From assembly GCA_964492835.1 (NCBI GenBank), contig CAZBLC010000002.1:7375-71374 (forward strand): 64,000 bases of DNA. The letters run 5' to 3'. A program made the translations under genes and the position numbers. The stretch's first letter is position 1. Each line of letters opens with the position of its first letter. The DNA comes from an uncultured Candidatus Saccharibacteria bacterium. Its GTDB lineage: Bacteria; Patescibacteriota; Minisyncoccia; Phycocordibacterales; PALSA-1337. The notes under the pieces are model-generated. The model saw only the letters and a program-made list of their open reading frames with translations, ran no database searches and was not told the origin of the DNA. Below, piece by piece: positions 39,491 to 49,378 of this stretch.

Positions 39491-39523
39491 AATAATTTAG
39501 AAATAAAAAAATAGACAAAACAA

Positions 39524-39549
39524 AACCGCATGGCGAACCATGCGGTTTG
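39524..39549. terminator. hairpin terminator at the rny / GC-rich island junction (functional mainly on minus strand)
   Basis: aaaccgcatggcgaaccatgcggttt. On the minus strand it is followed by uuuuguuuugucuauuuuuuu. Only a short U stretch follows on the plus strand. Confidence 0.6.
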
Positions 39550-39558
39550 AGGGTGGCC

Positions 39559-40011
39559 TTACTTTGAGAAGACCACGAACTCATAGGGGGAAATGAAAAT
39601 CTTTCCCCCGATCTTACTAATCGGCAATTCCACCCAATCATACCGCTTTGGATGGTGAGGGTGGGGATCCATGTTCAAAGTTGGCACATGGAGAATCTCA
39701 CTCCGTGCCAAAGTGACACGTGACACCGACCGACGGATCTTGCCTCTGTGCTTGAGACACAGAAGCCGACTTACCGGTGCATCCTTGCGACGACATTCCT
39801 TACGAAACATCTCCTTCGCAAAATTATCCACCTCGCCACTGCCGGCGAATTTGGAATACCCAAGCCCTCGAGCACACGCCCGAATTTGAGCGAGGGTATA
39901 ATACCCTCCTTGAGTATTCCACGGGCACACAGCAATCTGCTCTGTGCCAAACCAAACACTACCAATCGGAAGAACTTCAATCTTCATCTTATGTGATTTC
40001 CAATTTTTCAA
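39559..40011 (-). CDS. hypothetical protein, GC-rich island gene 4
   Basis: 150-aa ORF (internal alternative start MKIEVLP…). About 50% GC against the one-third-GC host. Cys/His-containing. No motif recognised. Confidence 0.35.
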   Translation of the reverse strand: MKNWKSHKMKIEVLPIGSVWFGTEQIAVCPWNTQGGYYTLAQIRACARGLGYSKFAGSGEVDNFAKEMFRKECRRKDAPVSRLLCLKHRGKIRRSVSRVTLARSEILHVPTLNMDPHPHHPKRYDWVELPISKIGGKIFISPYEFVVFSK

Positions 40012-40099
40012 CCGACTCTATGAATCCACAATAATCTTTCAATTATGGACTCAAAAAAGTGAAGGATTTTTGCATCAGAATCCTCCAAAAACTCGAACA

Positions 40100-40954
40100 T
40101 CACCTAGGTTTGACAATCACTCCAGCAAACCCACGAACCGGATCGCCATAAGGTTCACCGACCCGATTTGGGAAAGTGGCCGCCCATGACATAAAATCCT
40201 GCACGATCTTAGGGGCCGTGTGTCCACCGAGAACAATCTTCCTATTGCCTGTCGGCTTTTGTGTCCGATCCTTGTCACAAATATCAGCCACGTAGGACTC
40301 ACCGGACCTAAGAGCTGCCTCTGGCAACTCTTCCACAAATCCAATGGTCCGCAGATCGCGGACTCCGTTATCAAACTTGGGAGCGGACTTGAGTATGGTC
40401 ACCGCCTTCCCAATGATTGCTTCCAGGATCCCAGGATCAGCCTTGTGGGCCAGACTCGGAATCCCTGCGTAGAACGCCACCTTCTCCGAAAGACGATGGA
40501 GACGAATGGCATCCGGGGTCACCATCTGGCACCGGCCAGCGTAAGCGGCGGCTGGACAATGGTCGCTTGCTGCGACCAAGAGTTGATACTCCGTCGGCTT
40601 GAGGCCGAGAAACATCAACAACTGTCCGAGGGATGAACCTTCGAAATACAGTTCAGGCGGAAACCCGAATCCGTAATCCCCAGGATTATGGTGGTCGCAA
40701 CGCGCGACCACCTCGAGCGAACCGGCGCATGCCGGATTGCATTCGAAGATAATGGCTCCGGTCAACTCTTCAGCTAACCCACCATCAACCACAAATCCGT
40801 CAGCCTTGTAGGCAGTGCTGGCCGAAACCAGCTGACCTTGAAATGTCGCCGTGGCGACAATATAGCCGACCGATTCAGCCGCCTTCCGGGCTTCTGCTTC
40901 CTCAACATCAGTCATACCGAAGATGACTACCGTATTTTTAGGTATAGCTTTCAT
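40100..40954 (-). CDS. divergent DHH/DHHA1-like phosphoesterase (island gene 3)
   Basis: 284 aa. FVVDGG (motif II-like Asp), VVARCDHHNPGDYG (DHH motif III) and KIVLGGHTAPK (GGGH-like DHHA1 motif) appear in the canonical order. High GC. Confidence 0.45.
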   Translation of the reverse strand: MKAIPKNTVVIFGMTDVEEAEARKAAESVGYIVATATFQGQLVSASTAYKADGFVVDGGLAEELTGAIIFECNPACAGSLEVVARCDHHNPGDYGFGFPPELYFEGSSLGQLLMFLGLKPTEYQLLVAASDHCPAAAYAGRCQMVTPDAIRLHRLSEKVAFYAGIPSLAHKADPGILEAIIGKAVTILKSAPKFDNGVRDLRTIGFVEELPEAALRSGESYVADICDKDRTQKPTGNRKIVLGGHTAPKIVQDFMSWAATFPNRVGEPYGDPVRGFAGVIVKPR

Positions 40955-41090
40955 CTTTTTTACTTGTCGAGATTTTCCTTTAGATCCACCACATCATGTG
41001 ACAGATCTATTAAGAAACCCGAATTCACGAATCGGGTTCTGGTTTACAACTTAGTAAACCTCGGCGTGTTTAGGTAACACGCGACCATCT

Positions 41091-41579
41091 TTACTTCAGC
41101 CATGAGAGCGTCGTAGCCTCACGGTCAAGTCTTCCGAGAGTTGGGTGGGTGAGGTCGCCTATGCCAAGCTTTGAAAAATAGTTGGCAAATTTTGATACCG
41201 TCCACTCTTCATAATGACTGAACTCCCAGTCATTACAGCAACCGCCACTCATGTCGTCGTAGATCGCGACGGTGCCCTTCTCCTCACCATACTGGGCGAG
41301 GAAAATTTTGTTTTGAGCCTCCAACTTGTCGAGGAATCTCTTCCTCGCAAGAAGCTCGAGATCTGAACCAAGTAGATTCAGACGTTCGTCGTCATCCCAG
41401 ACCAGATCAATGATCTGGCCCACCTCGAGGTGGTAAAGGGTGGTCGAAACAACCCCATGATCTCCACCACCACGAAAGATGTGGACTGCCACGTGTTGGT
41501 AGGCCTCACCCGGAGCGAAGCTCCAGGAGAGAACGCGTCCTTTGACGCGTTGGCCTTTTTTGCTAAAAAACCAAGACAT
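41091..41579 (-). CDS. hypothetical protein, GC-rich island gene 2
   Basis: 162-aa ORF. High GC. No motif recognised. Confidence 0.35.
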   Translation of the reverse strand: MSWFFSKKGQRVKGRVLSWSFAPGEAYQHVAVHIFRGGGDHGVVSTTLYHLEVGQIIDLVWDDDERLNLLGSDLELLARKRFLDKLEAQNKIFLAQYGEEKGTVAIYDDMSGGCCNDWEFSHYEEWTVSKFANYFSKLGIGDLTHPTLGRLDREATTLSWLK

Positions 41580-41887
41580 AATAAATTTTCCTTCTCAGAA
41601 TCACACTTGCACCAACAATAGGTACAATATGCAATCCCTCTTACCCCACCAATGTTTAAGTTTTTTACGCTATCTATATAGTGAGGCGAAGAGGAATAAC
41701 ATTGCAGTTGTCTGTTTACACAGACCATTGTTCTGCGTTCTCCATATTCGCTATTTAGTTATCAAATAACTTTCTGCTTTTCGATCCTTTTGGACCTTCA
41801 TCAGTCGGAATGCACATTCCGAGAAGCAACCCATTCGCTCAATGGGTAGAGTTAAGTTTTCTAGGTTCACCTACAACCTTGCCACGA

Positions 41888-42268
41888 CTAGTAGCTGTGG
41901 AGCTCCCGAAAGCCAGCGAATGAGAAGACGAGCTCCTTCTTCACCGTGCCATCAGACTGGGGAATGTCTTTCGACACTCGAGGGGTCACCGACTCCACCA
42001 GCTTAGCACCGGTCTTACGGCCGATGGCGTTGATGGCAGCGGCCAGCTGTTGCTGGCCCATGCAGTGGAGGGTGTCCCCCTCCTTGATGCCACCGACTGC
42101 GGTGACCACTGCCTCGGCCCGCTGGACGAACCAGTCACGGCTGAGGTTCGCGTCGTCCGGCACCACCAAGAGTTTCTTGTCCTGGAGCTGGACCACCTCG
42201 CCAACCGCCTGAGCGGCAGCGATCTGGTCGGCGGTAGGAGCGTGTTGCATGACAAAGATGAATTTCAT
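41888..42268 (-). CDS. hypothetical Rossmann-like small protein (island gene 1)
   Basis: The track ORF extends to 42451. The likely start is MKFIFVMQHAPTADQ… at 42268, just after the GC transition. The alpha/beta pattern (…KKLLVVPDD…GDTLHCMGQQQLAAAINAIG…) suggests a Rossmann-like or SLOG-like fold. No firm family. Confidence 0.35.
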   Translation of the reverse strand: MKFIFVMQHAPTADQIAAAQAVGEVVQLQDKKLLVVPDDANLSRDWFVQRAEAVVTAVGGIKEGDTLHCMGQQQLAAAINAIGRKTGAKLVESVTPRVSKDIPQSDGTVKKELVFSFAGFRELHSY

Positions 42269-42452
42269 GGCTAAAATGTCAACTATACTCAGGTAGTAAA
42301 GCGTAAGTGCTTCCTTTTCCTTTGTATCTTGTATAATCATAACACAATGAACACATTTGTCAATTGGTGTTATTCGTATTTTCCTTGTTAAATAACAATA
42401 TTCGTAATATACTTGTCTTGTATGCTTAATATTGTCATAACTTTGTAACAAA

Positions 42453-43208
42453 ATGAATGAGAAAGTACTAATAGACTGTGGTTTGAGTTTAGAGCAAGCA
42501 AAAATATATACCTATATAATAACGAATGGTCTTTCTACTGCAAAGGTAATATCATCCATAACCGGTGTAGGTAGAGCGCTAACATACAAGATATTAGATC
42601 AATTAGAGGGTTTTGATCTGGTTGAAAAGAGAGAGGACATTAGTAAGATAGCCCTTTTCTCCCCCAAACACCCAAGAAATCTTAAAAATATGATAGATGA
42701 GAAGAAAAGGGGTCTAGAGCATGCGTATAACGATTTTAATAAAGTATATGGACTTCTCTCTTCAGAGTTCAACGCACTTATTGGAAGACCGAATGTTCAG
42801 TTCTACGACGGAGTCGAGGGTATATCGAAGGTACATGAAGACATATTAGATGTAGCTCAAGACATAATGGTCATAAGTTCACCAATTAAAGAAGGGCGTC
42901 AAGAAGTATTGCATTTAATAAAGGAACAGATTGAAAAGCAGGTCGCAAAGAATATCAAGACTAAAGCCATAGCACCACACTTAGATGGGCAAAAAATTGC
43001 TACACCAATCGAGGAGGACGAAAAGTATCTTATTACTAGAAAGAAGGTTTCTATAGATAAATTGAATATTCCAGCCCAAATTATTCTATATGGCGATAAG
43101 GTATCAATAACAAACTTCAAGGAAAACATTATTACTGTTGTTATAGAGAGTAGACACATAACTGAAACGTTTAGAGTAATGTTCAATTATATTTGGAATC
43201 ACGACTGA
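42453..43208 (+). CDS. TrmB-family HTH transcriptional regulator
   Basis: 251 aa. N-terminal wHTH …LSLEQAKIYTYIITNGLSTAKVISSITGVGRALTYKILDQLEGFDLVEK… is typical of TrmB-type regulators. C-terminal effector-domain-like region. Confidence 0.6.
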   Translation: MNEKVLIDCGLSLEQAKIYTYIITNGLSTAKVISSITGVGRALTYKILDQLEGFDLVEKREDISKIALFSPKHPRNLKNMIDEKKRGLEHAYNDFNKVYGLLSSEFNALIGRPNVQFYDGVEGISKVHEDILDVAQDIMVISSPIKEGRQEVLHLIKEQIEKQVAKNIKTKAIAPHLDGQKIATPIEEDEKYLITRKKVSIDKLNIPAQIILYGDKVSITNFKENIITVVIESRHITETFRVMFNYIWNHD

Positions 43209-43320
43209 TTTTGCTAAAAAATAAATAGTATTGTCTAATTTAACCCCTATTGCGCGAAAAGTGCCTTAATATATAATTATATGGAGGTTAGAAATCATTA
43301 TTAATTAATATTGAATAACT

Positions 43321-43593
43321 ATGAACAAAGCAGGAATTGTAGATGCAGTACACGCAGTACTAGGAGGAACAAAGGTACAAGCTGAACAAGCTGTTGAGAC
43401 TTTGTTAAACTCAATCATCGGATCTCTAAAAAAGGGTGAGGAAGTTTCTATCGCAGGTCTAGGTATCTTCTCAGTAAAGGAAAGAGCAGCTCGTGATGCT
43501 CGTAATCCTCGAACTGGAGAGACAATCAAGGTACCAGCTATGAAGGTGCCTAAGTTCAGAGCTGCTAAAGCTTTGAAGGATGCAGTAAAATAG
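43321..43593 (+). CDS. hup: DNA-binding protein HU
   Basis: 90 aa. MNKAGIVDAV…SLKKGEEVSIAGLGIFSVKERAARDARNPRTGETIKVPAMKVPKFRAAKALKDAV is canonical HU/IHF. Confidence 0.9.
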   Translation: MNKAGIVDAVHAVLGGTKVQAEQAVETLLNSIIGSLKKGEEVSIAGLGIFSVKERAARDARNPRTGETIKVPAMKVPKFRAAKALKDAVK

Positions 43594-43616
43594 AATACGA
43601 GGTATATATAACAAAA

Positions 43617-43640
43617 AGACCGCATAATACGGTCTTTTTG
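43617..43640. terminator. bidirectional rho-independent terminator
   Basis: agaccgcataatacggtct hairpin flanked by A-run and T-run. Sits between convergent hup and the small membrane ORF. Confidence 0.75.
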
Positions 43641-43644
43641 TTTA

Positions 43645-43929
43645 TCACTCCCCTTCCTCACTCTTTGTTAAACTCAAGCTACCATCCTTAGCAATCTTAA
43701 TCTCTACCACTCTGTGTTTATCTACTTCACTAGTAAAAGTGAATATTCTACCCTCTCTAGTCATTGTATAGTTACCAATATCACATCTATTCTCACTAAT
43801 TGAACAGAATTTATCCATTCTATCCATAACCTTATTCAAATTTGACTGGGTATTAAGTCGTATACTAAAAAGTATAACGACAAGGATGATTGTAAGAAAA
43901 ATAAGTGTTCCTCTTAAAAATCCGTTCAT
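43645..43929 (-). CDS. small membrane-anchored hypothetical protein
   Basis: The track ORF 43645-43980 reads into tRNA-Trp. The plausible start is MNGFLRGTLIFLTIILVVILF… at 43929. Single TM. Confidence 0.35.
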   Translation of the reverse strand: MNGFLRGTLIFLTIILVVILFSIRLNTQSNLNKVMDRMDKFCSISENRCDIGNYTMTREGRIFTFTSEVDKHRVVEIKIAKDGSLSLTKSEEGE

Positions 43930-44002
43930 GGTGCGGGACGGGGGAATCGAACCCCCATCTACACATTGGAAGTGTGTCATTTTACCACTAAACTAGTCCC
44001 GC
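43929..44002 (-). tRNA. tRNA-Trp (anticodon CCA), 3' CCA encoded
   Basis: Reverse complement GCGGGAC-TA-GTTT-AGTGGTA-AAAT-G-ACACA-CTTCCAA-TGTGT-AGATG-GGGGG-TTCGATT-CCCCC-GTCCCGC-A-CCA folds as a cloverleaf. The anticodon loop CTTCCAA gives CCA. Confidence 0.85.
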
Positions 44003-44045
44003 TTATATTAAAATTTAAGAACTTTATCTATACTAGCAAGAATTT

Positions 44046-44495
44046 TTAATTTTTGCCACTATTCTCGCCTGTTTGTGGATGATTATGCTTTATCTCCTCC
44101 TTTATCTCATCCATCTCCTTCTTGATATCCAATATTGCTTCTTCTAGAACTACTATCTCCTTTTCTTCTTCTTCTATATCCTTCTTTGTCTTGTCAGCAC
44201 TCTTCTTCTGTTGCTTAAGTCCTGATATTAGGATTGTATCTCCAATGAAGTACGAAACAAACAATCCTGTAGCTAGAAGTATTACTACGGTAATGATCAT
44301 ACTTACTGGTTCATAGAAAAGAAAACCTAGTATTCCCCCTTTAGCTTGTAGTATGTCTGCTGTATGCCATATACCCCTCCAAAACAATACTATGGCCACA
44401 CTACCTATTAGAGTATATACAACCGGGAAACGACTTAAATTCCCTCTTACACCATCTTCAAATTTATCAAAAAAATCTACAACCTTTTTAATCAT
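44046..44495 (-). CDS. hypothetical membrane protein with C-terminal acidic coiled coil
   Basis: 149 aa, two TM segments, E/K-rich tail. Confidence 0.4.
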   Translation of the reverse strand: MIKKVVDFFDKFEDGVRGNLSRFPVVYTLIGSVAIVLFWRGIWHTADILQAKGGILGFLFYEPVSMIITVVILLATGLFVSYFIGDTILISGLKQQKKSADKTKKDIEEEEKEIVVLEEAILDIKKEMDEIKEEIKHNHPQTGENSGKN

Positions 44496-44507
44496 AAATG
44501 TATTATA

Positions 44508-45872
44508 TCATCCCTTTGGATCAAAAATAGAGGGATTAGGGTTTTCTCCAGACAAAATTCTAGAAATTCTGCGTCCTCCATATACAGACGGTATGATTCC
44601 TATACCATTGCAACCCAAGTTGTATAGCAATACCCTATTTTTTGGTTCCGCTCCTATTAATCTAATTCTATTAGGTGTGTAACCCATAAGACCGTGCCAT
44701 GTAAACTCATAGTCAATCTTACGGTTAGGATCAGAATCATATTCTTTCTTAATAAATTGATCTATTTTTGTAGGAATTTCATCTGGATAATCATAATTCC
44801 TCATATACTCAGCTTTATCATCCAGAGCTATCTCTGGTCCTCCCATACATACCAAGTTATGCTTCTTATCGCCATACTCATGAGGTCTTCTGGTTAGATA
44901 CAAGTACTCTGCCTTTGGGTCAGTTGGGTCATAATCATCAGTCCAATATGCTATAGCAGTTGGTGGTTTGTTTATATTCTCTAGATATCCAGACATATAA
45001 CCAACAGTTCCACCAACTAAGTGGTGAAAGTTCTTGTCTATAGCCAATCCACCGTCATTAAATATATCGAAATTCTCAAATCCATTTGTGCACAAAATTA
45101 TCTTACTAGCGTTTATCGTATGCTTTTCCACATCAAGTAGTCCGTGTTTCTCCTTCAGAACTATCTTGTTGACCCTAGTTTCTTCATACAAAGTGAATCT
45201 ATCCTTATACTTTTCCAACAAGAACAGAGCTATCTCCTGACAGAACAAAGCTGAATTCATACATGCCGCATCGTCTGAGTATAGGGCGTGAAAACTTTCA
45301 TCTTTTGTCTCCATCCTCTTTAATATTTCAGACTGTGGAACTAGTCTATACAGATTCTTGTAAATCCTAGGTATTGAATCCACAAAAGGTGCTGTTTCAC
45401 TAACTAAAAAAGTATTTTGATGTATTCCTGATCTAACTTCCATCTCTAAATCTCCAAGAGCCCTCAAGACTTGGTAAAGGTTTGAATATCCTATGTTTCC
45501 CTTAGTCTTAGAGAAGACTATATCAAGCTTTGCATCCTCATACATTTCGTCTATGAGTAACCAAGTTGAATTTAGAGCTTGTATAGCATCTTTTGTCATA
45601 TCAAATCCAAACTCTTTCTCTATATCAACCAATGGTCTTTCGAAACGTGCCACTACTTGTCCGGCATTATGACCTGTTGCACCATGAGCCAATCTTCCCT
45701 GGTCTAATATGACTACCCTTTGCTTAGTATATTTGAGAGTAAAGAAAGCTGTAGATATTCCAGCTATCCCCGCACCGATAATAGCGACATCAGTATCTAA
45801 ATCCTTATTAAGAGAGATAGATTTCCTCTCATGATCTAGTTGATGTATCCACGGTGACTTATTAATTCTCAT
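44508..45872 (-). CDS. FAD-dependent oxidoreductase (DAO family)
   Basis: 454 aa. N-terminal dinucleotide-binding motif DVAIIGAGIAGISTA. …LDQGRLAHGATGHNAGQVV…. Confidence 0.7.
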   Translation of the reverse strand: MRINKSPWIHQLDHERKSISLNKDLDTDVAIIGAGIAGISTAFFTLKYTKQRVVILDQGRLAHGATGHNAGQVVARFERPLVDIEKEFGFDMTKDAIQALNSTWLLIDEMYEDAKLDIVFSKTKGNIGYSNLYQVLRALGDLEMEVRSGIHQNTFLVSETAPFVDSIPRIYKNLYRLVPQSEILKRMETKDESFHALYSDDAACMNSALFCQEIALFLLEKYKDRFTLYEETRVNKIVLKEKHGLLDVEKHTINASKIILCTNGFENFDIFNDGGLAIDKNFHHLVGGTVGYMSGYLENINKPPTAIAYWTDDYDPTDPKAEYLYLTRRPHEYGDKKHNLVCMGGPEIALDDKAEYMRNYDYPDEIPTKIDQFIKKEYDSDPNRKIDYEFTWHGLMGYTPNRIRLIGAEPKNRVLLYNLGCNGIGIIPSVYGGRRISRILSGENPNPSIFDPKG

Positions 45873-45918
45873 AAAAAAACAAATTTTATGAGTAGATTAT
45901 ACCACAAACACTTTATTG

Positions 45919-45991
45919 TCGGAGCGCCGGGATTCGAACCCGGAGTCGCCTCTTCCCAAAAGAGGAATGTTAGCCGTTACACCACGCTCCG
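45919..45991 (-). tRNA. tRNA-Pro (anticodon TGG)
   Basis: Reverse complement CGGAGCG-TG-GTGT-AACGGCTA-ACAT-T-CCTCT-TTTGGGA-AGAGG-CGAC-TCCGG-GTTCGAATC-CCGGC-GCTCCG-A folds as a cloverleaf with the anticodon loop TTTGGGA. No CCA encoded. Confidence 0.8.
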
Positions 45992-46263
45992 ATATAGAGA
46001 TTATACTAGCATATGGATTATATAAAAGCCAAAATAATATAGTTATTGATACGCAAGCACCACTATTAGAGACGTGACCCTTATGTTCTTAAGCATCACA
46101 GGACATGTCCACAATAACAATTCCTATATTTCTACATGGTTATAAACAGACAGTGTTTATAACCTAAAAAGACAAAGGACACGAATATAGGCCATATTTT
46201 GTCTGTCTTATACCCACTATCCCCAATGTTATCCACAGTTTTACATAAAGTACCTACAAAATG

Positions 46264-46334
46264 TGCGGGTAGCGAGACTCGAACTCGCATTTTAACATTG
46301 GCAATGTCATGTTCTGCCCTTAAACTATACCCGC
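46264..46334 (-). tRNA. tRNA-Gly (anticodon GCC)
   Basis: Reverse complement GCGGGTA-TA-GTTT-AAGGGCAGAACA-TGACA-TTGCCAA-TGTTA-AAAT-GCGAG-TTCGAGT-CTCGC-TACCCGC-A. The anticodon loop TTGCCAA gives GCC. Confidence 0.8.
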
Positions 46335-47021
46335 AATGTAATTTTCCTGACTTAATTCGATAGCAAGCATCTCAATCCACTTCATAATCTTGCATTTTAA
46401 GTATGCACTAGAAACTCCAACACTGCAAACTCCGTATGATAATCTTCGAGTCTTGTGTTTGCCCAGTATAACCATACTCTTATTGAAATCCTCCGGTTTT
46501 AAGCCAGCATTATTAATCCAGTATTCTTTACACTTATCCTCATCTAAATCAGGATACAAAAGCAACCAAGCCTTCATCTTAGGACCTTCAAAACCACAAA
46601 TATTCTTTAAGAAACTCAAGAATAGCTTGATCATCAAAGGCTCAGTATTAGCAACACAACAATTGCTTTTAGAACTTTTATTACCCTCTCCCCAATAGAT
46701 CATTAAGCCAGATATAAACAGAGGGTGATACTTCAACAGATCAAACTCTTCAATCGCTTCCTTTCTAGCCTGCTCGTATAGTTGTTTAAGGTTATCACCT
46801 CTTATCTTATTAAGTCTCTGTATACGAACAATATGTGACTTCTTTGCCCTTTCTGAGAGTTTTTTAGATAGATCATTTGACCAATTCTGGTTTCTAAACC
46901 AGTCAGAAAGCGTGCTTTTAGGAACTCCTAATTCCGAAGCTATCTGATTATAGCTCTTTCCATCTCTTCTAAGTGATATAGCTTGTTCCTTATCTTTACG
47001 CATATGTGTAAAGTATATCAC
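46320..47021 (-). CDS. HTH + LAGLIDADG-like putative homing-endonuclease-family protein (copy B)
   Basis: 233 aa. N-terminal HTH (…ISLRRDGKSYNQIASELGVPKSTLSDWF…). Central …LFISGLMIYWGEGNKS… resembles a single LAGLIDADG helix with conserved acidic Glu before Gly. Paralog of 47158-47835. The last five codons and the stop lie inside the tRNA-Gly 5' region. Confidence 0.45.
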   Translation of the reverse strand: MIYFTHMRKDKEQAISLRRDGKSYNQIASELGVPKSTLSDWFRNQNWSNDLSKKLSERAKKSHIVRIQRLNKIRGDNLKQLYEQARKEAIEEFDLLKYHPLFISGLMIYWGEGNKSSKSNCCVANTEPLMIKLFLSFLKNICGFEGPKMKAWLLLYPDLDEDKCKEYWINNAGLKPEDFNKSMVILGKHKTRRLSYGVCSVGVSSAYLKCKIMKWIEMLAIELSQENYIAGIV

Positions 47022-47079
47022 ACGAGTTCGGTAAGCAAAAGTTAGAAATCTTATGTCTAATTTTTAAAGTATATCTTTG

Positions 47080-47151
47080 TGCACCCGGAGGGACTCGAAC
47101 CCCCAATAAATGCTTCGAAGGCACTTGTGATATCCATTTCACTACGGGTGC
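47080..47151 (-). tRNA. tRNA-Arg (anticodon TCG)
   Basis: Reverse complement GCACCCG-TA-GTGA-AATGGATA-TCAC-A-AGTGC-CTTCGAA-GCATT-TATTG-GGGGG-TTCGAGT-CCCTC-CGGGTGC-A. The anticodon loop CTTCGAA gives TCG. Confidence 0.75.
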
Positions 47152-47157
47152 GAACAT

Positions 47158-47835
47158 CTATAGACTATCATAATACTTAATAATTTGCTTCTGTAGTATT
47201 AACATGGTCTTTAGTGCTTCTACCTTGGTAATATCCATTCTGATACTTCCAATATAGCTACTATCCCTAATTGAATACTCTGGGGCTGGTGAGTATATTG
47301 TTTTTCTTAAATTATCCTTAGGTATTCCCAATATCCCAGACCAATAACTCTCGTTCTTCCCTATCTCCGAATACAAACCTCTCATATATAAACGATATGT
47401 CATGCTATTTGAGTATTGTGGCAGATACTTAATGATCCACCTCCGCATAATTGAGACCATGTTCGGATCTGAATTGGTAAATGAGAAATAGTTACCGCCC
47501 CTACTCCCCTCCGCCCAATATAATAGTATGCCAGTTGAGAAAAAAGGATCTTTAATGTTATCTCTAAACAAAACTTCTGTATTTGAAGAGATTTCCATAT
47601 CCTTAAATGCGCTTTTTGTCTTCAAAGCTAATATTCTACCCTTTCTGGATTTAACTCTGCCCTCTTTTACTCTCCTCTTTATCTCCAATCTTTGCTCTTT
47701 TGAAATGGAGATATCCTTGAGCCATAGAGAAAGTACTCCTTTGGATACTGGGACTTCATTCAATATCTCTGAATACGACTTACCAGACTTCCTTAGATCT
47801 ATAGCCATATTCTTTAGTTGAACATTTATAGTCAT
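47158..47835 (-). CDS. HTH + LAGLIDADG-like putative homing-endonuclease-family protein (copy A)
   Basis: 225 aa. N-terminal HTH (…IDLRKSGKSYSEILNEVPVSKGVLSLWL…). …FFSTGILLYWAEGSRGGNYFSFTNSDPNMVSIMRRWI… has LAGLIDADG-like helix and hairpin architecture. Collinear similarity to copy B throughout. Stop lies 6 nt from the tRNA-Arg 5' end. Confidence 0.45.
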   Translation of the reverse strand: MTINVQLKNMAIDLRKSGKSYSEILNEVPVSKGVLSLWLKDISISKEQRLEIKRRVKEGRVKSRKGRILALKTKSAFKDMEISSNTEVLFRDNIKDPFFSTGILLYWAEGSRGGNYFSFTNSDPNMVSIMRRWIIKYLPQYSNSMTYRLYMRGLYSEIGKNESYWSGILGIPKDNLRKTIYSPAPEYSIRDSSYIGSIRMDITKVEALKTMLILQKQIIKYYDSL

Positions 47836-47899
47836 GTTACATAACAGTATATCACATGTTCAATAATGAAAAAAAGTATATTTGTGCTAGTATATACAC

Positions 47900-49378
47900 A
47901 TGAAGCAAAACGCAATACCTAATGAAGTAGTCGGTGTAGTAGAGACTCTGGAGAAGGCAGGGTTTGAAGCTTTTCTAGTTGGTGGATGTACTAGGGATAT
48001 ATTACTAGGGAGAACACCTAAGGATTGGGATGTTACGACTAATGCCACACCAGAACAGATAATTCCGCTATTCACCAAGACCTTCTACGAAAACTCATAC
48101 GGAACTGTTGGGGTAGTTAATGAACAAACAGAAAATGAGTCATTAAAGATTGTGGAAGTCACTCCATATCGTCTTGAAAGCTCATATAATGACCACAGAC
48201 ACCCAGATCAGGTTAGTTTCAGCAAAAGTATTGCTGACGATTTAAAACGTCGTGATTTCACGATTAACGCCATTGCGATCAGTTTGTCTAATGGAGCAAT
48301 AAAAGACATTGTAGATATGTTTGATGGTATCAAGGATATAAAAGACAAAACCATAAGAGCGGTGGGGGATGCAAACGACAGATTCTCTGAGGATGCACTA
48401 CGTATGATGAGAGCTGTTAGATTAGCCACAGAATTAGGTTTCATGATTAACAATGATACCCAAAAGGCTATAGTTAGCCATTCTGATCTCATAAAGAAGA
48501 TATCGATAGAACGCGTAAGAGACGAGTTCGTTAGAATACTTATGTCCAATAACCCTAAGAAGGGAATTGAGATGCTAGATGAACTTAATCTTCTAGGACA
48601 TATAGTTCCAGAGCTTGTACAAGCTAAGGACGTTAAACAGAACCAAGCGCACGCCTATGATGTATGGGAACACCTTCTAAGAACGTTGCAGCATTCTGCT
48701 GATAAGGAGTGGCCACTAGATATTAGACTCTCAGCTCTATTCCACGACATATCTAAACCAGAGACAAAGAGATTTTCACATGAAACCAATCAAATAACAT
48801 TCTATGGACATGAAGTAGTTGGTTCACGTGTAACAAAGAAGATACTAGAGAGAATGAAGTTTCCGACAAAAACCATAGAGAAGGTGGTTAAAATGGTACG
48901 TTGGCACATGTTTTTCTCAGATACTGAGACAATTACACTGTCTGCAGTAAGGAGAATGATTAACAATGTAGGTAGGGAGAACATATGGGACCTGATGAAT
49001 ATACGTATATGCGACAGAATCGGTACAGGAAGACCTAAAGAGAATCCATACAGACTACGTAAGTACAAAGCTATGATAGAGGAGGCAATGGTAGATCCTG
49101 TATCTGTTGCCATGCTAAAGACAGATGGTAAACGCATTATGGAGGTTACACATGTAACACCAGGACCTAAGATAGGGTATACACTTAATGCCTTACTAGA
49201 GGAAGTTCTAGAGGATCCTAAGCTAAATACTACGGAATACCTAGATAAGAGGGCAATAGAGCTAGTATCACTACCGGACAAAGAACTTGAAATACTAGGT
49301 AAGCAAGGACAGAGTAAGAAAGAGGAAGTTGAGAATGAGAATCTAGAGGAAATAAGGAAGAAATACCACGTTTCATAA
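47900..49378 (+). CDS. cca: CCA-adding enzyme / tRNA nucleotidyltransferase with HD domain
   Basis: 492 aa. …FLVGGCTRDILLGRTPKDWDVTT… head domain. …RRDFTINAIA…. HD motif …LSALFHDISKPET…. Confidence 0.85.
   Translation: MKQNAIPNEVVGVVETLEKAGFEAFLVGGCTRDILLGRTPKDWDVTTNATPEQIIPLFTKTFYENSYGTVGVVNEQTENESLKIVEVTPYRLESSYNDHRHPDQVSFSKSIADDLKRRDFTINAIAISLSNGAIKDIVDMFDGIKDIKDKTIRAVGDANDRFSEDALRMMRAVRLATELGFMINNDTQKAIVSHSDLIKKISIERVRDEFVRILMSNNPKKGIEMLDELNLLGHIVPELVQAKDVKQNQAHAYDVWEHLLRTLQHSADKEWPLDIRLSALFHDISKPETKRFSHETNQITFYGHEVVGSRVTKKILERMKFPTKTIEKVVKMVRWHMFFSDTETITLSAVRRMINNVGRENIWDLMNIRICDRIGTGRPKENPYRLRKYKAMIEEAMVDPVSVAMLKTDGKRIMEVTHVTPGPKIGYTLNALLEEVLEDPKLNTTEYLDKRAIELVSLPDKELEILGKQGQSKKEEVENENLEEIRKKYHVS

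What the first reader, a model, noticed from the sequence alone, without database searches (positions are those of the whole stretch)
45919..47835. tRNA genes interleaved with two paralogous HTH + LAGLIDADG-like ORFs that abut or overlap the tRNA 5' ends
The minus-strand order is ORF A, then tRNA-Arg 6 nt downstream, then ORF B whose last five codons and TAA stop lie inside tRNA-Gly, then after 270 bp tRNA-Pro. A and B are collinear paralogs. Each has a resolvase/transposase-type HTH at the N-terminus and a single LAGLIDADG-like helix (GILLYWAEGS in A, GLMIYWGEGN in B) followed by a beta-hairpin region. That is the architecture of homodimeric LAGLIDADG homing endonucleases. Free-standing homing-endonuclease-like genes repeatedly parked against tRNA genes would be a tRNA-targeting selfish element, or a domesticated tRNA-associated factor.
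Basis: partly seen in the sequence, partly recalled or inferred. Interest (0 to 1): 0.7.

Follow-up and report, generated by a model that had tools for sequence, protein, structure and literature searches.

The report
Endonuclease-like genes parked beside tRNA genes
Two related genes in this small-genome bacterium belong to a large, undescribed family of probable DNA-cutting selfish genes that always sit just in front of one particular tRNA gene, and the tRNA beside an intact copy carries an altered anticodon stem, as if protected from being cut.

Summary
On the minus strand the order is ORF A (47158-47835), tRNA-Arg(TCG) 6 nt later, ORF B (46320-47003, last 15 nt inside tRNA-Gly(GCC)), then tRNA-Pro 271 nt on.

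The family is large (1768 clusters at E<=1e-30) and unannotated. Each subfamily sits directly 5' of one tRNA species. All 77 intact B-type ORFs with downstream sequence precede tRNA-Gly(GCC). A-types precede tRNA-Arg(TCG) or Gly(TCC). Other members precede Arg(TCT), Lys, Gln, Cys, Leu and His, including in huge-phage-like tRNA arrays and cultured Actinomadura.

Occupancy is sporadic in syntenic relatives (B 4/59, A 17/69), with truncated, frameshifted and motif-dead copies.

Intact copies almost never neighbour the canonical anticodon stem-loop. Every B copy lacking the motif glutamate does.

Best reading (confidence 0.6): free-standing homing-type endonucleases that target the partner tRNA's anticodon-stem DNA, with compensatory stem changes giving immunity. 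Cleavage is untested.

The parts
47846..47856 (-). Promoter-like extended -10 box TGTGATATACT, 10 nt before the ORF A start codon
   Evidence: Read directly. The same box precedes ORF B, and a TGATATA[AC]T box precedes ORF-less tRNA-Gly genes in L150, L056 and L005. The consensus scan did not call it. Its function is inferred.
47158..47835 (-). ORF A, 225 aa: A-type family member with HTH, a long helix and a LAGLIDADG-like domain. Motifs LLYWAEGSR and FTNSDPN are intact.
   Evidence: AF2 pLDDT is 93.4. It is 62% identical to the L005 ortholog, while the flanking genes are 92% identical.
47079..47151 (-). tRNA-Arg(TCG), the partner tRNA of ORF A, starting 6 nt after the ORF A stop
   Evidence: 64.4 bits. 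A-type ORFs precede this tRNA species in the window, L005/6, L030, L046, L069 and 17 metagenome loci.
47109..47125 (-). Anticodon stem-loop of tRNA-Arg, AGTGCCTTCGAAGCATT: a non-canonical stem variant
   Evidence: ORF-less relatives mostly have [GA]GTCTTCG[GA]AAC[CT] (53 of 96). None of the 8 alleles beside an intact A-type ORF does.
47012..47022 (-). Promoter-like box TGTGATATACT, 8 nt before the ORF B start codon
   Evidence: Read directly. Function is inferred.
46320..47003 (-). ORF B, 227 aa: B-type family member. Motifs MIYWGEGNK, VANTEP and LLYPD are intact.
   Evidence: AF2 pLDDT is 89.9. E106, G107, W104 and N119 are invariant in 38 homologs.
46263..46334 (-). tRNA-Gly(GCC), the partner tRNA of ORF B. 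Its first 15 nt encode AGIV plus the stop of ORF B.
   Evidence: (67.3 bits). It is only 75% identical to the tRNA-Gly of the ORF-B-less relative L005, whereas tRNA-Arg and tRNA-Pro are 100% identical.
46293..46309 (-). Anticodon stem-loop of tRNA-Gly, TGACATTGCCAATGTTA: a variant of the canonical palindrome CGTCCTTGCCAAGGACG
46246..47075 (-). The block (promoter, ORF B, tRNA-Gly and about 20 nt beyond) that replaces a 143-nt spacer plus tRNA-Gly in the close relative L005. No target-site duplication or terminal inverted repeats were seen at either junction.
   Evidence: Alignment A2. An analogous block was seen for L056 versus L150, whose CCA enzymes are 99.4% identical.
45918..45991 (-). tRNA-Pro(TGG): a neighbour only, not part of the element
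   Evidence: 0 of 48 tRNA-Pro(TGG) genes in relatives have a family ORF upstream.

Best explanation
ORF A and ORF B are two members of a large family of free-standing, homing-type site-specific endonuclease genes. Each protein has an N-terminal HTH DNA-binding module, a long helix, and one LAGLIDADG-like catalytic domain that probably works as a dimer.

Each subfamily is tied to one tRNA species and sits immediately 5' of that tRNA gene on the same strand. It is probably transcribed from a tRNA-type promoter together with the tRNA.

Proposed mechanism:
1. The enzyme cuts the DNA that encodes the anticodon stem-loop of the partner tRNA in genomes lacking the ORF. For tRNA-Gly(GCC) this is a 17-bp perfect palindrome, CGTCCTTGCCAAGGACG.
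2. Repair of the break uses an ORF-bearing allele as template. This copies the ORF together with its linked tRNA.
3. The linked tRNA is immune because compensatory changes have rewritten its anticodon stem while keeping it paired.
4. Copies later lose the catalytic motif, shrink and are deleted.

Shown here: the tRNA linkage, sporadic occupancy, block replacement, decayed copies, the coupling between the motif and the anticodon stem, the fold resemblance, and fused double-unit forms.

Inferred: nuclease activity, DNA rather than RNA as substrate, the identity of the target site, and homing itself.
For: 1. tRNA linkage. All 77 intact B-type ORFs with downstream sequence are followed by tRNA-Gly(GCC) at -21 to +65 nt. 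A-types are followed by tRNA-Arg(TCG) or Gly(TCC). Other members precede Arg(TCT), Lys(CTT) and Gln(TTG). In IMG/VR contigs with up to 28 tRNAs per 20 kb, members precede Cys, Leu, Lys and His.

2. Sporadic occupancy of one syntenic site. B is present at 4 of 59 sites, A at 17 of 69, the Gly(TCC) type at 1 of 33, and Pro at 0 of 48. Pairs that differ in B presence include L056/L150 (CCA enzymes 99.4% identical), L011/L089 (93.9%) and the window/L005 (91.9%).

3. Block replacement with the tRNA. In the window versus L005, tRNA-Arg and tRNA-Pro are 100% identical but tRNA-Gly is 75%. In L056 versus L150, the flank is 95% identical on one side of the block and 81% on the other.

4. Anticodon stem-loop. 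Of unique tRNA-Gly alleles, 35 of 40 without B carry TCCTTGCCAAGGA, against 12 of 71 with B (p=2.6e-13). There are 47 different stems and 98.8% of positions remain paired. Matched by CCA-enzyme identity (70-80% bin), stem-loop differences are 1.0 for pairs both lacking B and 5.4 for pairs both carrying B, while the rest of the tRNA differs equally (9.3 versus 10.4).

5. Coupling to the catalytic motif. All 6 B copies lacking the Glu of YWGEG sit beside the canonical stem. They come from at least 3-4 lineages and have also lost the conserved Asn and YPD. Only 7 of 74 Glu-intact copies do so (p=5.7e-6). For A-types, 0 of 8 intact copies sit beside the canonical stem, against 6 of 13 degenerate copies and 53 of 96 sites with no ORF (p=0.0025).

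6. No co-variation of protein and stem. In L001/L010 the B proteins are 96% identical but the linked stems are completely different.

8. Dimer logic. Fused HTH-domain-HTH-domain proteins occur in Actinomadura at the same tRNA-Gln site where Spirillospora has a single unit.

9. Decay stages. Frameshifts are seen in L118/119, L077 and L083, and internal deletions in L087/88/165. A 30-nt remnant of the ORF's 3' end survives in the 'empty' sites of L089/90.

10. Faster protein evolution than neighbours, but under purifying selection. For A, dN is 0.29 against 0.045 for the flanking genes. For B, dN/dS is 0.04-0.16.
Against: - There are no biochemical data.
- The predicted element order (helix, strand, helix, strand, helix, strand, strand, helix) is not the textbook alpha-beta-beta-alpha-beta-beta-alpha.
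- B-protein identity still correlates with CCA-enzyme identity (Spearman 0.44), and dS is only mildly raised. Much of the inheritance is therefore vertical, and horizontal homing is not demonstrated.
- Seven Glu-intact B copies sit beside a canonical core.
- The Fisher tests are not corrected for phylogeny.
- Several phage-like members and P0236 have no tRNA within 150 nt downstream.
- Many motif-dead A copies remain open reading frames, which hints at a second, non-catalytic role.
Confidence: 0.6

Rival explanations
1. The proteins act on RNA. In one version they are nucleases, or tight binders, specific for the anticodon stem-loop of the canonical partner tRNA, and the linked variant tRNA is a resistant 'antidote'. 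That would make the pair a toxin-antidote or addiction module, or a weapon in phage tRNA arrays. In another version they are maturase-like helpers for the co-transcribed tRNA.
For: The coupling between motif state and anticodon stem is explained equally well at the RNA level. ORF and tRNA are probably co-transcribed, and the stop codon lies inside the tRNA. Family members sit inside phage-like tRNA arrays next to tRNA-related genes such as TyrRS. From established knowledge, some LAGLIDADG proteins bind RNA as intron maturases.
Against: The N-terminal domain is a transposase/resolvase-type HTH, a class that binds duplex DNA. The closest structural matches are DNA endonucleases solved with DNA. 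A helper role does not explain why linked stems only need to differ from the canonical one and do not co-vary with the protein (L001/L010). It also does not explain why most relatives lack the gene.
Confidence: 0.13
2. The proteins are domesticated, non-catalytic DNA-binding factors, comparable to WhiA. They regulate transcription of the tRNA gene immediately downstream.
Against: Most close relatives express the same tRNAs without the gene. The acidic residue that WhiA lacks was invariant in all 240 homologs returned by the first two protein searches. Loss of the motif tracks the tRNA's anticodon stem, which is not a promoter element. Truncated and frameshifted copies are frequent.
Confidence: 0.1
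3. The ORFs are passive accessory genes. They hitch-hike at tRNA loci because conserved tRNA genes are good recombination anchors. They have no nuclease role, and the anticodon-stem differences only mark foreign origin of the block.
For: The ends of the replaced block fall in highly conserved sequence: tRNA-Arg on one side and a conserved 80-nt block on the other. tRNA genes are classic recombination and integration sites (established knowledge).
Against: This does not explain strict subfamily-to-tRNA specificity, constant orientation and 0-20 nt spacing across phyla. It does not explain the association between the catalytic Glu and the stem state. It does not explain why the anticodon stem changes more than the rest of the tRNA.
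Confidence: 0.07

Closest known systems
Phage T4 SegB, a free-standing GIY-YIG homing endonuclease inside the T4 tRNA gene cluster (PMC2330249)
   Same: It is a free-standing endonuclease gene embedded among tRNA genes. Its 27-bp recognition site includes a conserved tRNA motif (the T-psi-C stem-loop). It drives preferential inheritance of itself together with neighbouring tRNA genes, and related phages lack the gene. This matches the ORF-plus-tRNA block replacement and sporadic occupancy seen here.
   Different: SegB has a GIY-YIG catalytic domain, not a LAGLIDADG-like one. It is a single phage gene, not a family with one subfamily per tRNA species. No fixed 5'-abutting position, and no immunity through rewritten anticodon stems, has been described for it. 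Here the hosts are mainly cellular (Patescibacteria, Actinomycetota).
Homodimeric LAGLIDADG homing endonucleases (I-CreI, I-CeuI, I-MsoI) and their fused two-domain relatives (I-DmoI, I-SceI)
   Different: No sequence-profile match was found and Foldseek was silent. The predicted strand order differs. The proteins carry an extra N-terminal HTH plus a 50-residue helix. The genes are free-standing beside tRNA genes rather than inside introns or inteins.
WhiA/DUF199, a bacterial regulator with two degenerate LAGLIDADG domains and a C-terminal HTH
   Different: WhiA has two domains in one chain, a C-terminal HTH and no catalytic acidic residues. It is a conserved, single-copy host gene not tied to tRNA genes. 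Here the HTH is N-terminal, there is one domain, intact copies keep the Glu, and distribution is sporadic.
Intron-encoded endonucleases in Patescibacteria rRNA and tRNA genes (PMC13011429)
   Same: The host phylum is the same, and the elements exploit conserved RNA genes.
   Different: Those elements lie inside group I introns within the RNA gene. In tRNA-Asn they are of the HNH type. The ORFs here lie outside the tRNA and involve no intron, and that survey does not mention them.

Membership tests
LAGLIDADG homing endonucleases | Dodecapeptide motif: a helix ending in a conserved acidic residue followed by Gly, at the start of the catalytic domain | tested here: met
   The motif [LM][IL]YW[GA]EG ends helix 94-106 (B) or 97-109 (A) in the AF2 models. 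The Glu is present in all 240 homologs returned by the first two protein searches and Glu-Gly are invariant columns in alignment A4. The motif is divergent (YWxEG rather than LAGLIDADG).
LAGLIDADG homing endonucleases | Detectable sequence homology to curated LAGLIDADG profiles (Pfam LAGLIDADG_1/2/3, Hom_end) or to solved members | tested here: not met
   Pfam at E<=10 on 42 members returns HTH families only. NCBIfam and PHROGs do likewise. hmmsearch of the A1 and A3 profiles against PDB sequences returns HTH hits only.
LAGLIDADG homing endonucleases | The alpha-beta-beta-alpha-beta-beta-alpha fold | tested here: inconclusive
LAGLIDADG homing endonucleases | Site-specific double-strand DNA cleavage leaving 4-nt 3' overhangs | not testable with these tools
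   This needs purified protein and substrate DNA.
Homing endonuclease genes in general (selfish life cycle) | Presence/absence polymorphism at one precise genomic site in related genomes, with co-conversion of flanking markers | tested here: met
   Occupancy is 4 of 59 for B and 17 of 69 for A. Pairs differing in B presence reach 99.4% CCA-enzyme identity. The tRNA-Gly allele is replaced together with ORF B.
Homing endonuclease genes in general (selfish life cycle) | Degenerate and deleted copies (an invasion, decay and loss cycle) | tested here: met
   Frameshifted copies occur in L077, L083 and L118/119. L087/88/165 are internally deleted and motif-dead. L049, L052, L073, L074, L079 and L081, and several A-types, have lost the Glu. 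L089/90 keep a 30-nt remnant of the ORF's 3' end.
Homing endonuclease genes in general (selfish life cycle) | Horizontal spread: gene phylogeny incongruent with host phylogeny | tested here: inconclusive
   Some pairs are discordant: the window versus L011 has CCA 82% and B 56%, while the window versus L007 has CCA 68% and B 70%. Overall, however, Spearman is 0.44 and dS is only mildly raised.
GIY-YIG Seg endonucleases (SegB-like) | GIY-YIG catalytic domain | tested here: not met
   No GIY-YIG hit appears in Pfam, PHROGs or the fold searches.
WhiA family | Two LAGLIDADG-like domains in one chain, a C-terminal HTH, loss of catalytic acidic residues, and conserved single-copy host gene status | tested here: not met
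   The proteins have one domain, an N-terminal HTH and a retained Glu. Their distribution is sporadic.
Insertion sequences / transposases with an HTH | A DDE or serine catalytic domain, terminal inverted repeats and target-site duplication | tested here: not met
   Only the HTH resembles transposases. The occupied versus empty junctions show no terminal inverted repeats or target-site duplication, and the block ends fall in homologous sequence.

The most novel reading that the evidence does not exclude
The module is a nucleic-acid-level poison-antidote pair. The protein destroys the canonical anticodon stem-loop of one essential tRNA, either in its gene or in the tRNA itself. The linked, recoded tRNA is the only copy that survives. 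Such a module would act as a gene drive on essential tRNA genes in cellular genomes. In huge-phage tRNA arrays it would let the phage eliminate the host's tRNA supply and substitute its own. It would also make a selfish nuclease the main driver of anticodon-stem evolution in these lineages.
Probability: 0.15. Interest if true: 0.92.

Novelty: new variant of a known kind. Interest (0 to 1): 0.78.

Why it matters
If the reading is right, this is a very large protein family, annotated at most generically (hypothetical, HTH-domain, transcriptional regulator or transposase), that has specialised on tRNA genes. It holds 1768 clusters at E<=1e-30 and about 5000 at E<=1e-10. It spans Patescibacteria, Actinomycetota and phage-like contigs.

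It would explain why anticodon stems of particular tRNAs are hypervariable in some lineages and frozen in their sisters. That would be a clear natural example of compensatory RNA-stem evolution driven by conflict with a selfish DNA element.

It would add a compact HTH plus LAGLIDADG-like scaffold, with natural single-chain fusions, to the set of programmable meganuclease-type enzymes.

It is directly testable, because cultured Actinomadura and Spirillospora strains carry members next to tRNA-Gln.

It also matters for annotation. Gene callers name these genes only generically (hypothetical, HTH-domain, transcriptional regulator or transposase), and several end inside tRNA genes.

Tried and rejected
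- **Sequence routes to a named family.** Pfam, NCBIfam, PHROGs and phmmer/hmmsearch against PDB gave only HTH hits.
- **Fold searches.** Foldseek against PDB gave no significant hit; the top matches were OmpA-like and HypE. The AFDB50 library was unavailable.
- **Known RNA families.** Rfam at E<=1 on 43500-48500 found only the four tRNAs, so there is no hidden intron or ncRNA.
- **Promoter and terminator scan.** The consensus scan found nothing useful.
- **Annotated collections.** tblastn of phage-like and actinomycete members against INPHARED phages and PLSDB plasmids found no match.
- **Housekeeping gene.** Rejected on occupancy and decayed copies.
- **Transposon or insertion sequence.** Rejected: no terminal inverted repeats or target-site duplication, and no transposase domain.
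- **Protein co-evolving with its own linked anticodon stem.** Rejected: Spearman between B identity and tRNA-Gly identity is 0.02, and L001/L010 have 96% identical B but different stems.
- **Rapid decay under relaxed selection.** Rejected for intact copies, whose dN/dS is 0.04-0.16.
- **Genome avoidance of the target.** A search for the canonical 17-mer elsewhere in the window was uninformative: 0 hits against 0.04 expected.
- **Literature.** Searches found no description of this family or of the tRNA-stem effect.
Full report
**Observation**

ARAGORN and Rfam place three tRNA genes on the minus strand:
- tRNA-Arg(TCG) at 47079-47151
- tRNA-Gly(GCC) at 46263-46334
- tRNA-Pro(TGG) at 45918-45991

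ORF A (47158-47835, 225 aa) stops 6 nt before tRNA-Arg. ORF B is best started at the ATG at 47003, which gives 227 aa, the length of nearly all homologs. It ends at 46320, so its last four sense codons and TAA (GCG GGT ATA GTT TAA) are tRNA-Gly positions 1-15. The gap to tRNA-Pro is 271 nt.

A and B are paralogs (BLASTP E=5e-13).

**What the proteins look like**

Both have an N-terminal three-helix HTH. Pfam HTH_23 matches B and 35 of 42 A-type relatives. A helix of about 50 residues follows, then an alpha/beta domain of about 130 residues.

The AlphaFold models are confident, with pLDDT 89.9 for B and 93.4 for A.

- WhiA, E-DreI, PI-PfuI, I-Tsp061I and I-CeuI

The first helix of the domain ends in [LM][IL]YW[GA]EG. 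Its Glu is present in all 240 homologs returned by the first two protein searches. A second motif, N-[ST]-[DE]-P, follows the next strand.

Against full membership, Foldseek finds nothing significant. No sequence profile links the domain to LAGLIDADG families. The predicted strand order is not the textbook one. I therefore call the domain LAGLIDADG-like, not a proven member.

**The family and its tRNA partners**

A profile search of 1.84 billion cluster representatives finds 1768 clusters at E<=1e-30 and 4990 at E<=1e-10. Those that carry a source name are called 'hypothetical', 'HTH-domain protein', 'transcriptional regulator' or 'transposase'.

A scan of one genome per GTDB species returned 126 matching stretches, and the 80 best were kept as B-type loci (L007-L086). 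Across these and loci L001-L006, every intact B-type ORF with downstream sequence (77) is followed on the same strand by tRNA-Gly(GCC). The gap ranges from -21 to +65 nt, and the commonest value is the same 15-nt overlap seen in the window.

| Family member | tRNA immediately downstream |
|---|---|
| B-type | Gly(GCC) |
| A-type | Arg(TCG) or Gly(TCC) |
| P0147 | Arg(TCT) |
| P0235 | Lys(CTT) |
| P0195 | Gln(TTG), with the 15-nt overlap |
| Actinomadura kijaniata, A. parmotrematis, Spirillospora sp. | Gln(TTG), 58-110 nt downstream, between an ADP-ribosylglycohydrolase gene and glmU-prs |

In IMG/VR, 17 members lie on contigs of 12-499 kb inside dense tRNA arrays of up to 28 tRNAs per 20 kb. 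Several of these members sit directly 5' of tRNA-Cys, -Leu, -Lys or -His. Neighbouring genes match phage families for NAD ligase, TyrRS and HNH endonuclease.

**Not a housekeeping gene**

The CCA-adding enzyme gene next to ORF A (47900-49378) lies within 3 kb of B in 61 of the loci that carry B. I used it to sample 80 related metagenome loci without reference to the ORFs.

| tRNA gene in the sampled loci | Family ORF upstream | No ORF |
|---|---|---|
| Arg(TCG) | 17 | 52 |
| Gly(GCC) | 4 (true B-type) | 55 |
| Gly(TCC) | 1 | 32 |
| Pro(TGG) | 0 | 48 |

Close relatives differ in occupancy:
- L056 (B present) and L150 (B absent) have CCA enzymes 99.4% identical.
- L011 and L089 are 93.9% identical.
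- The window and L005 are 91.9% identical.

Several stages of decay are present:
- frameshifted copies in L077, L083 and L118/119
- short copies with an internal deletion and a dead motif (YWSSG, YTLGG, YWTSG) in L087, L088 and L165
- 'empty' sites in L089/90 that still keep about 30 nt of the ORF's 3' end

Intact copies are under purifying selection but evolve faster than their neighbours. For ORF A against L005, dN is 0.29, compared with 0.045 for the flanking genes. For B, dN/dS is 0.04-0.16.

**The ORF moves with its tRNA**

Between the window and L005, tRNA-Arg and tRNA-Pro are 100% identical. The segment from just after tRNA-Arg to about 20 nt past tRNA-Gly is replaced, and the two tRNA-Gly(GCC) genes are only 75% identical.

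L056 and L150 show the same kind of block. Flank identity is 95% on one side and 81% on the other.

Neither junction shows a target-site duplication or terminal inverted repeats. The ends of the block fall in conserved sequence, as expected for recombination or break repair rather than transposition.

**The anticodon stem-loop signal**

This is the most informative result. The canonical 17-nt anticodon stem-loop of tRNA-Gly(GCC) is CGTCCTTGCCAAGGACG, a perfect palindrome about C35.

| Unique tRNA-Gly(GCC) alleles | Carry TCCTTGCCAAGGA | Other features |
|---|---|---|
| Without B | 35 of 40 | 21 have the full 17-nt palindrome |
| With B | 12 of 71 | 47 different stems, 98.8% of positions still paired |

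The Fisher test gives p=2.6e-13, not corrected for phylogeny.

I then matched pairs of genomes by CCA-enzyme identity (70-80% bin). The 17-nt stem-loop differs by 1.0 positions in pairs that both lack B, and by 5.4 in pairs that both carry B. The rest of the tRNA differs equally, by 9.3 and 10.4 positions. In all five closest pairs that differ in B presence, the B-less allele is canonical-like and the B-linked one is not.

The stem does not co-vary with the protein. In L001 and L010 the B proteins are 96% identical and the CCA enzymes 98%, yet the linked stems are TAACA/TGTTA and GGATC/GATTC. The linked stem therefore only has to differ from the canonical one.

**Coupling to the catalytic motif**

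Six B copies have lost the Glu: YWAHG (two), YWMHG (two), YAANG and YWSAG. They come from at least 3-4 lineages and have also lost the conserved Asn and YPD. All six sit beside a canonical core. Among Glu-intact copies, 7 of 74 do (p=5.7e-6).

The A-type and tRNA-Arg(TCG) pair shows the same pattern. The canonical stem-loop [GA]GTCTTCG[GA]AAC[CT] occurs in:
- 53 of 96 alleles with no ORF
- 6 of 13 alleles beside motif-dead or truncated ORFs
- 0 of 8 alleles beside YWAEG-intact ORFs (p=0.0025)

The window fits this pattern. Both of its ORFs have intact motifs, and both partner tRNAs have variant stems.

**Dimer logic**

Actinomadura species encode HTH-domain-HTH-domain fusions of 424-576 aa that carry the motif twice. 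They occupy the same tRNA-Gln site where Spirillospora has a single unit. This is the route by which homodimeric LAGLIDADG enzymes are known to have become single-chain enzymes. It fits a dimer acting on a palindromic site.

**Mechanism proposed**

1. A dimer of the HTH plus LAGLIDADG-like protein recognises and cuts the DNA encoding the canonical anticodon stem-loop of its partner tRNA in ORF-less genomes.
2. Repair from an ORF-bearing allele copies the ORF and the adjacent tRNA.
3. The rewritten but still paired stem of that tRNA makes it immune.
4. The ORF supplies a tRNA-type promoter (TGTGATATACT, 8-10 nt before each ATG), so ORF and tRNA are probably co-transcribed.
5. Later the motif decays, and the canonical stem is then tolerated again.

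Shown here are linkage, occupancy, block replacement, decay, stem statistics, motif coupling and fold resemblance. Nuclease activity, a DNA rather than RNA substrate, the exact target and homing itself are inferred.

**Weak points**

- B identity still tracks host identity (Spearman 0.44), so much of the inheritance is vertical.
- Seven Glu-intact copies sit beside a canonical core.
- Some phage-like members lack a tRNA immediately downstream.
- Many motif-dead A copies stay open, with a recurrent Glu-to-His change in both subfamilies. This suggests a second, non-catalytic role.

**Comparison with known systems**

The closest functional precedent is T4 SegB. It is a free-standing GIY-YIG endonuclease in the T4 tRNA cluster whose site includes a conserved tRNA motif, and it drives inheritance of the tRNA region (PMC2330249).

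The closest structural relatives are homodimeric LAGLIDADG enzymes and WhiA.

A 2026 survey of Patescibacteria tRNA introns covers endonucleases inside tRNA introns, not these upstream ORFs (PMC13011429). I found no description of the family or of the stem effect.

**Verdict**

The feature is real. I classify it as a new variant of a known kind (free-standing homing endonucleases), with a new and testable twist: immunity through compensatory recoding of an essential tRNA's anticodon stem.

Noticed in passing
window 46170-46245 (minus strand, just 3' of tRNA-Gly(GCC)): A non-coding block of about 80 nt is about 99% identical to L005/L006, although synonymous sites in the flanking genes are saturated (dS>=1). 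It contains TGTGGATAA (DnaA-box-like) and a hairpin followed by a T-run (AAGACAGACAAA...TTTGTCTTTTT). The same 20-mer occurs in L057. It has no Rfam match. It may be a terminator, a small RNA or a protein-binding site, and it forms the right-hand boundary of the ORF B block.
   Followed up: partly
window 39494-43229: The blastn HSPs against the close relative L005 jump from window 43230 to 39493. About 3.7 kb of the window therefore has no counterpart in L005 (an indel or island).
   Followed up: no
L049, L052, L079, L081 (B-type); L096, L098, L099, L100 (A-type): The motif Glu is replaced by His (YWAHG, YWMHG, YLAHG, YLSHG) independently in both subfamilies, together with loss of the N-x-D-P asparagine. 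The ORFs stay open. Seven of these eight copies sit beside a canonical anticodon stem. This could be a repeated switch to a non-cleaving function.
   Followed up: partly
P0241-P0246, P0262, P0274; loci L207, L208 (Actinomadura) versus L209 (Spirillospora): Tandem fused double-unit family proteins (HTH-domain-HTH-domain, motif YWCEG twice) occur in cultured actinomycetes at the tRNA-Gln(TTG)/glmU-prs locus. P0243 ends in GAGIV, the tail typical of an ORF that runs into a tRNA-Gly gene.
   Followed up: partly
window 47846-47856 and 47012-47022; L150, L056, L005 upstream of tRNA-Gly: ORF A and ORF B start 8-10 nt after an extended -10-like TGTGATATACT with no Shine-Dalgarno sequence, so the mRNAs are probably leaderless. 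A similar TGATATA[AC]T box precedes the ORF-less tRNA-Gly genes of L150 and L056, and L005 has a related TATATAAT box. If ORF B and tRNA-Gly are co-transcribed, RNase P cleavage at the tRNA 5' end would remove the ORF B stop codon.
   Followed up: no
L206 5295-5693: The gene neighbouring a family member is a LigD_N protein interrupted by an intein that carries a LAGLIDADG_2 endonuclease. This is a classical LAGLIDADG element in the same genome.
   Followed up: no
L203-L205 (P0236, seen in 80 blocks of the collection): This family member has no tRNA within the 130 nt downstream. It lies about 100 nt 3' of two tandem tRNA-Met genes, next to uvrB. It is an exception to the 5'-of-tRNA rule and comes from a widely sampled organism.
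   Followed up: no
tRNA-Gly(GCC) of L001 versus L010: These two genomes have CCA enzymes 98% identical and B proteins 96% identical. Yet their tRNA-Gly(GCC) genes are only 78% identical, with differences concentrated in the anticodon and T stems. The tRNA allele can therefore be exchanged independently of the ORF.
   Followed up: partly
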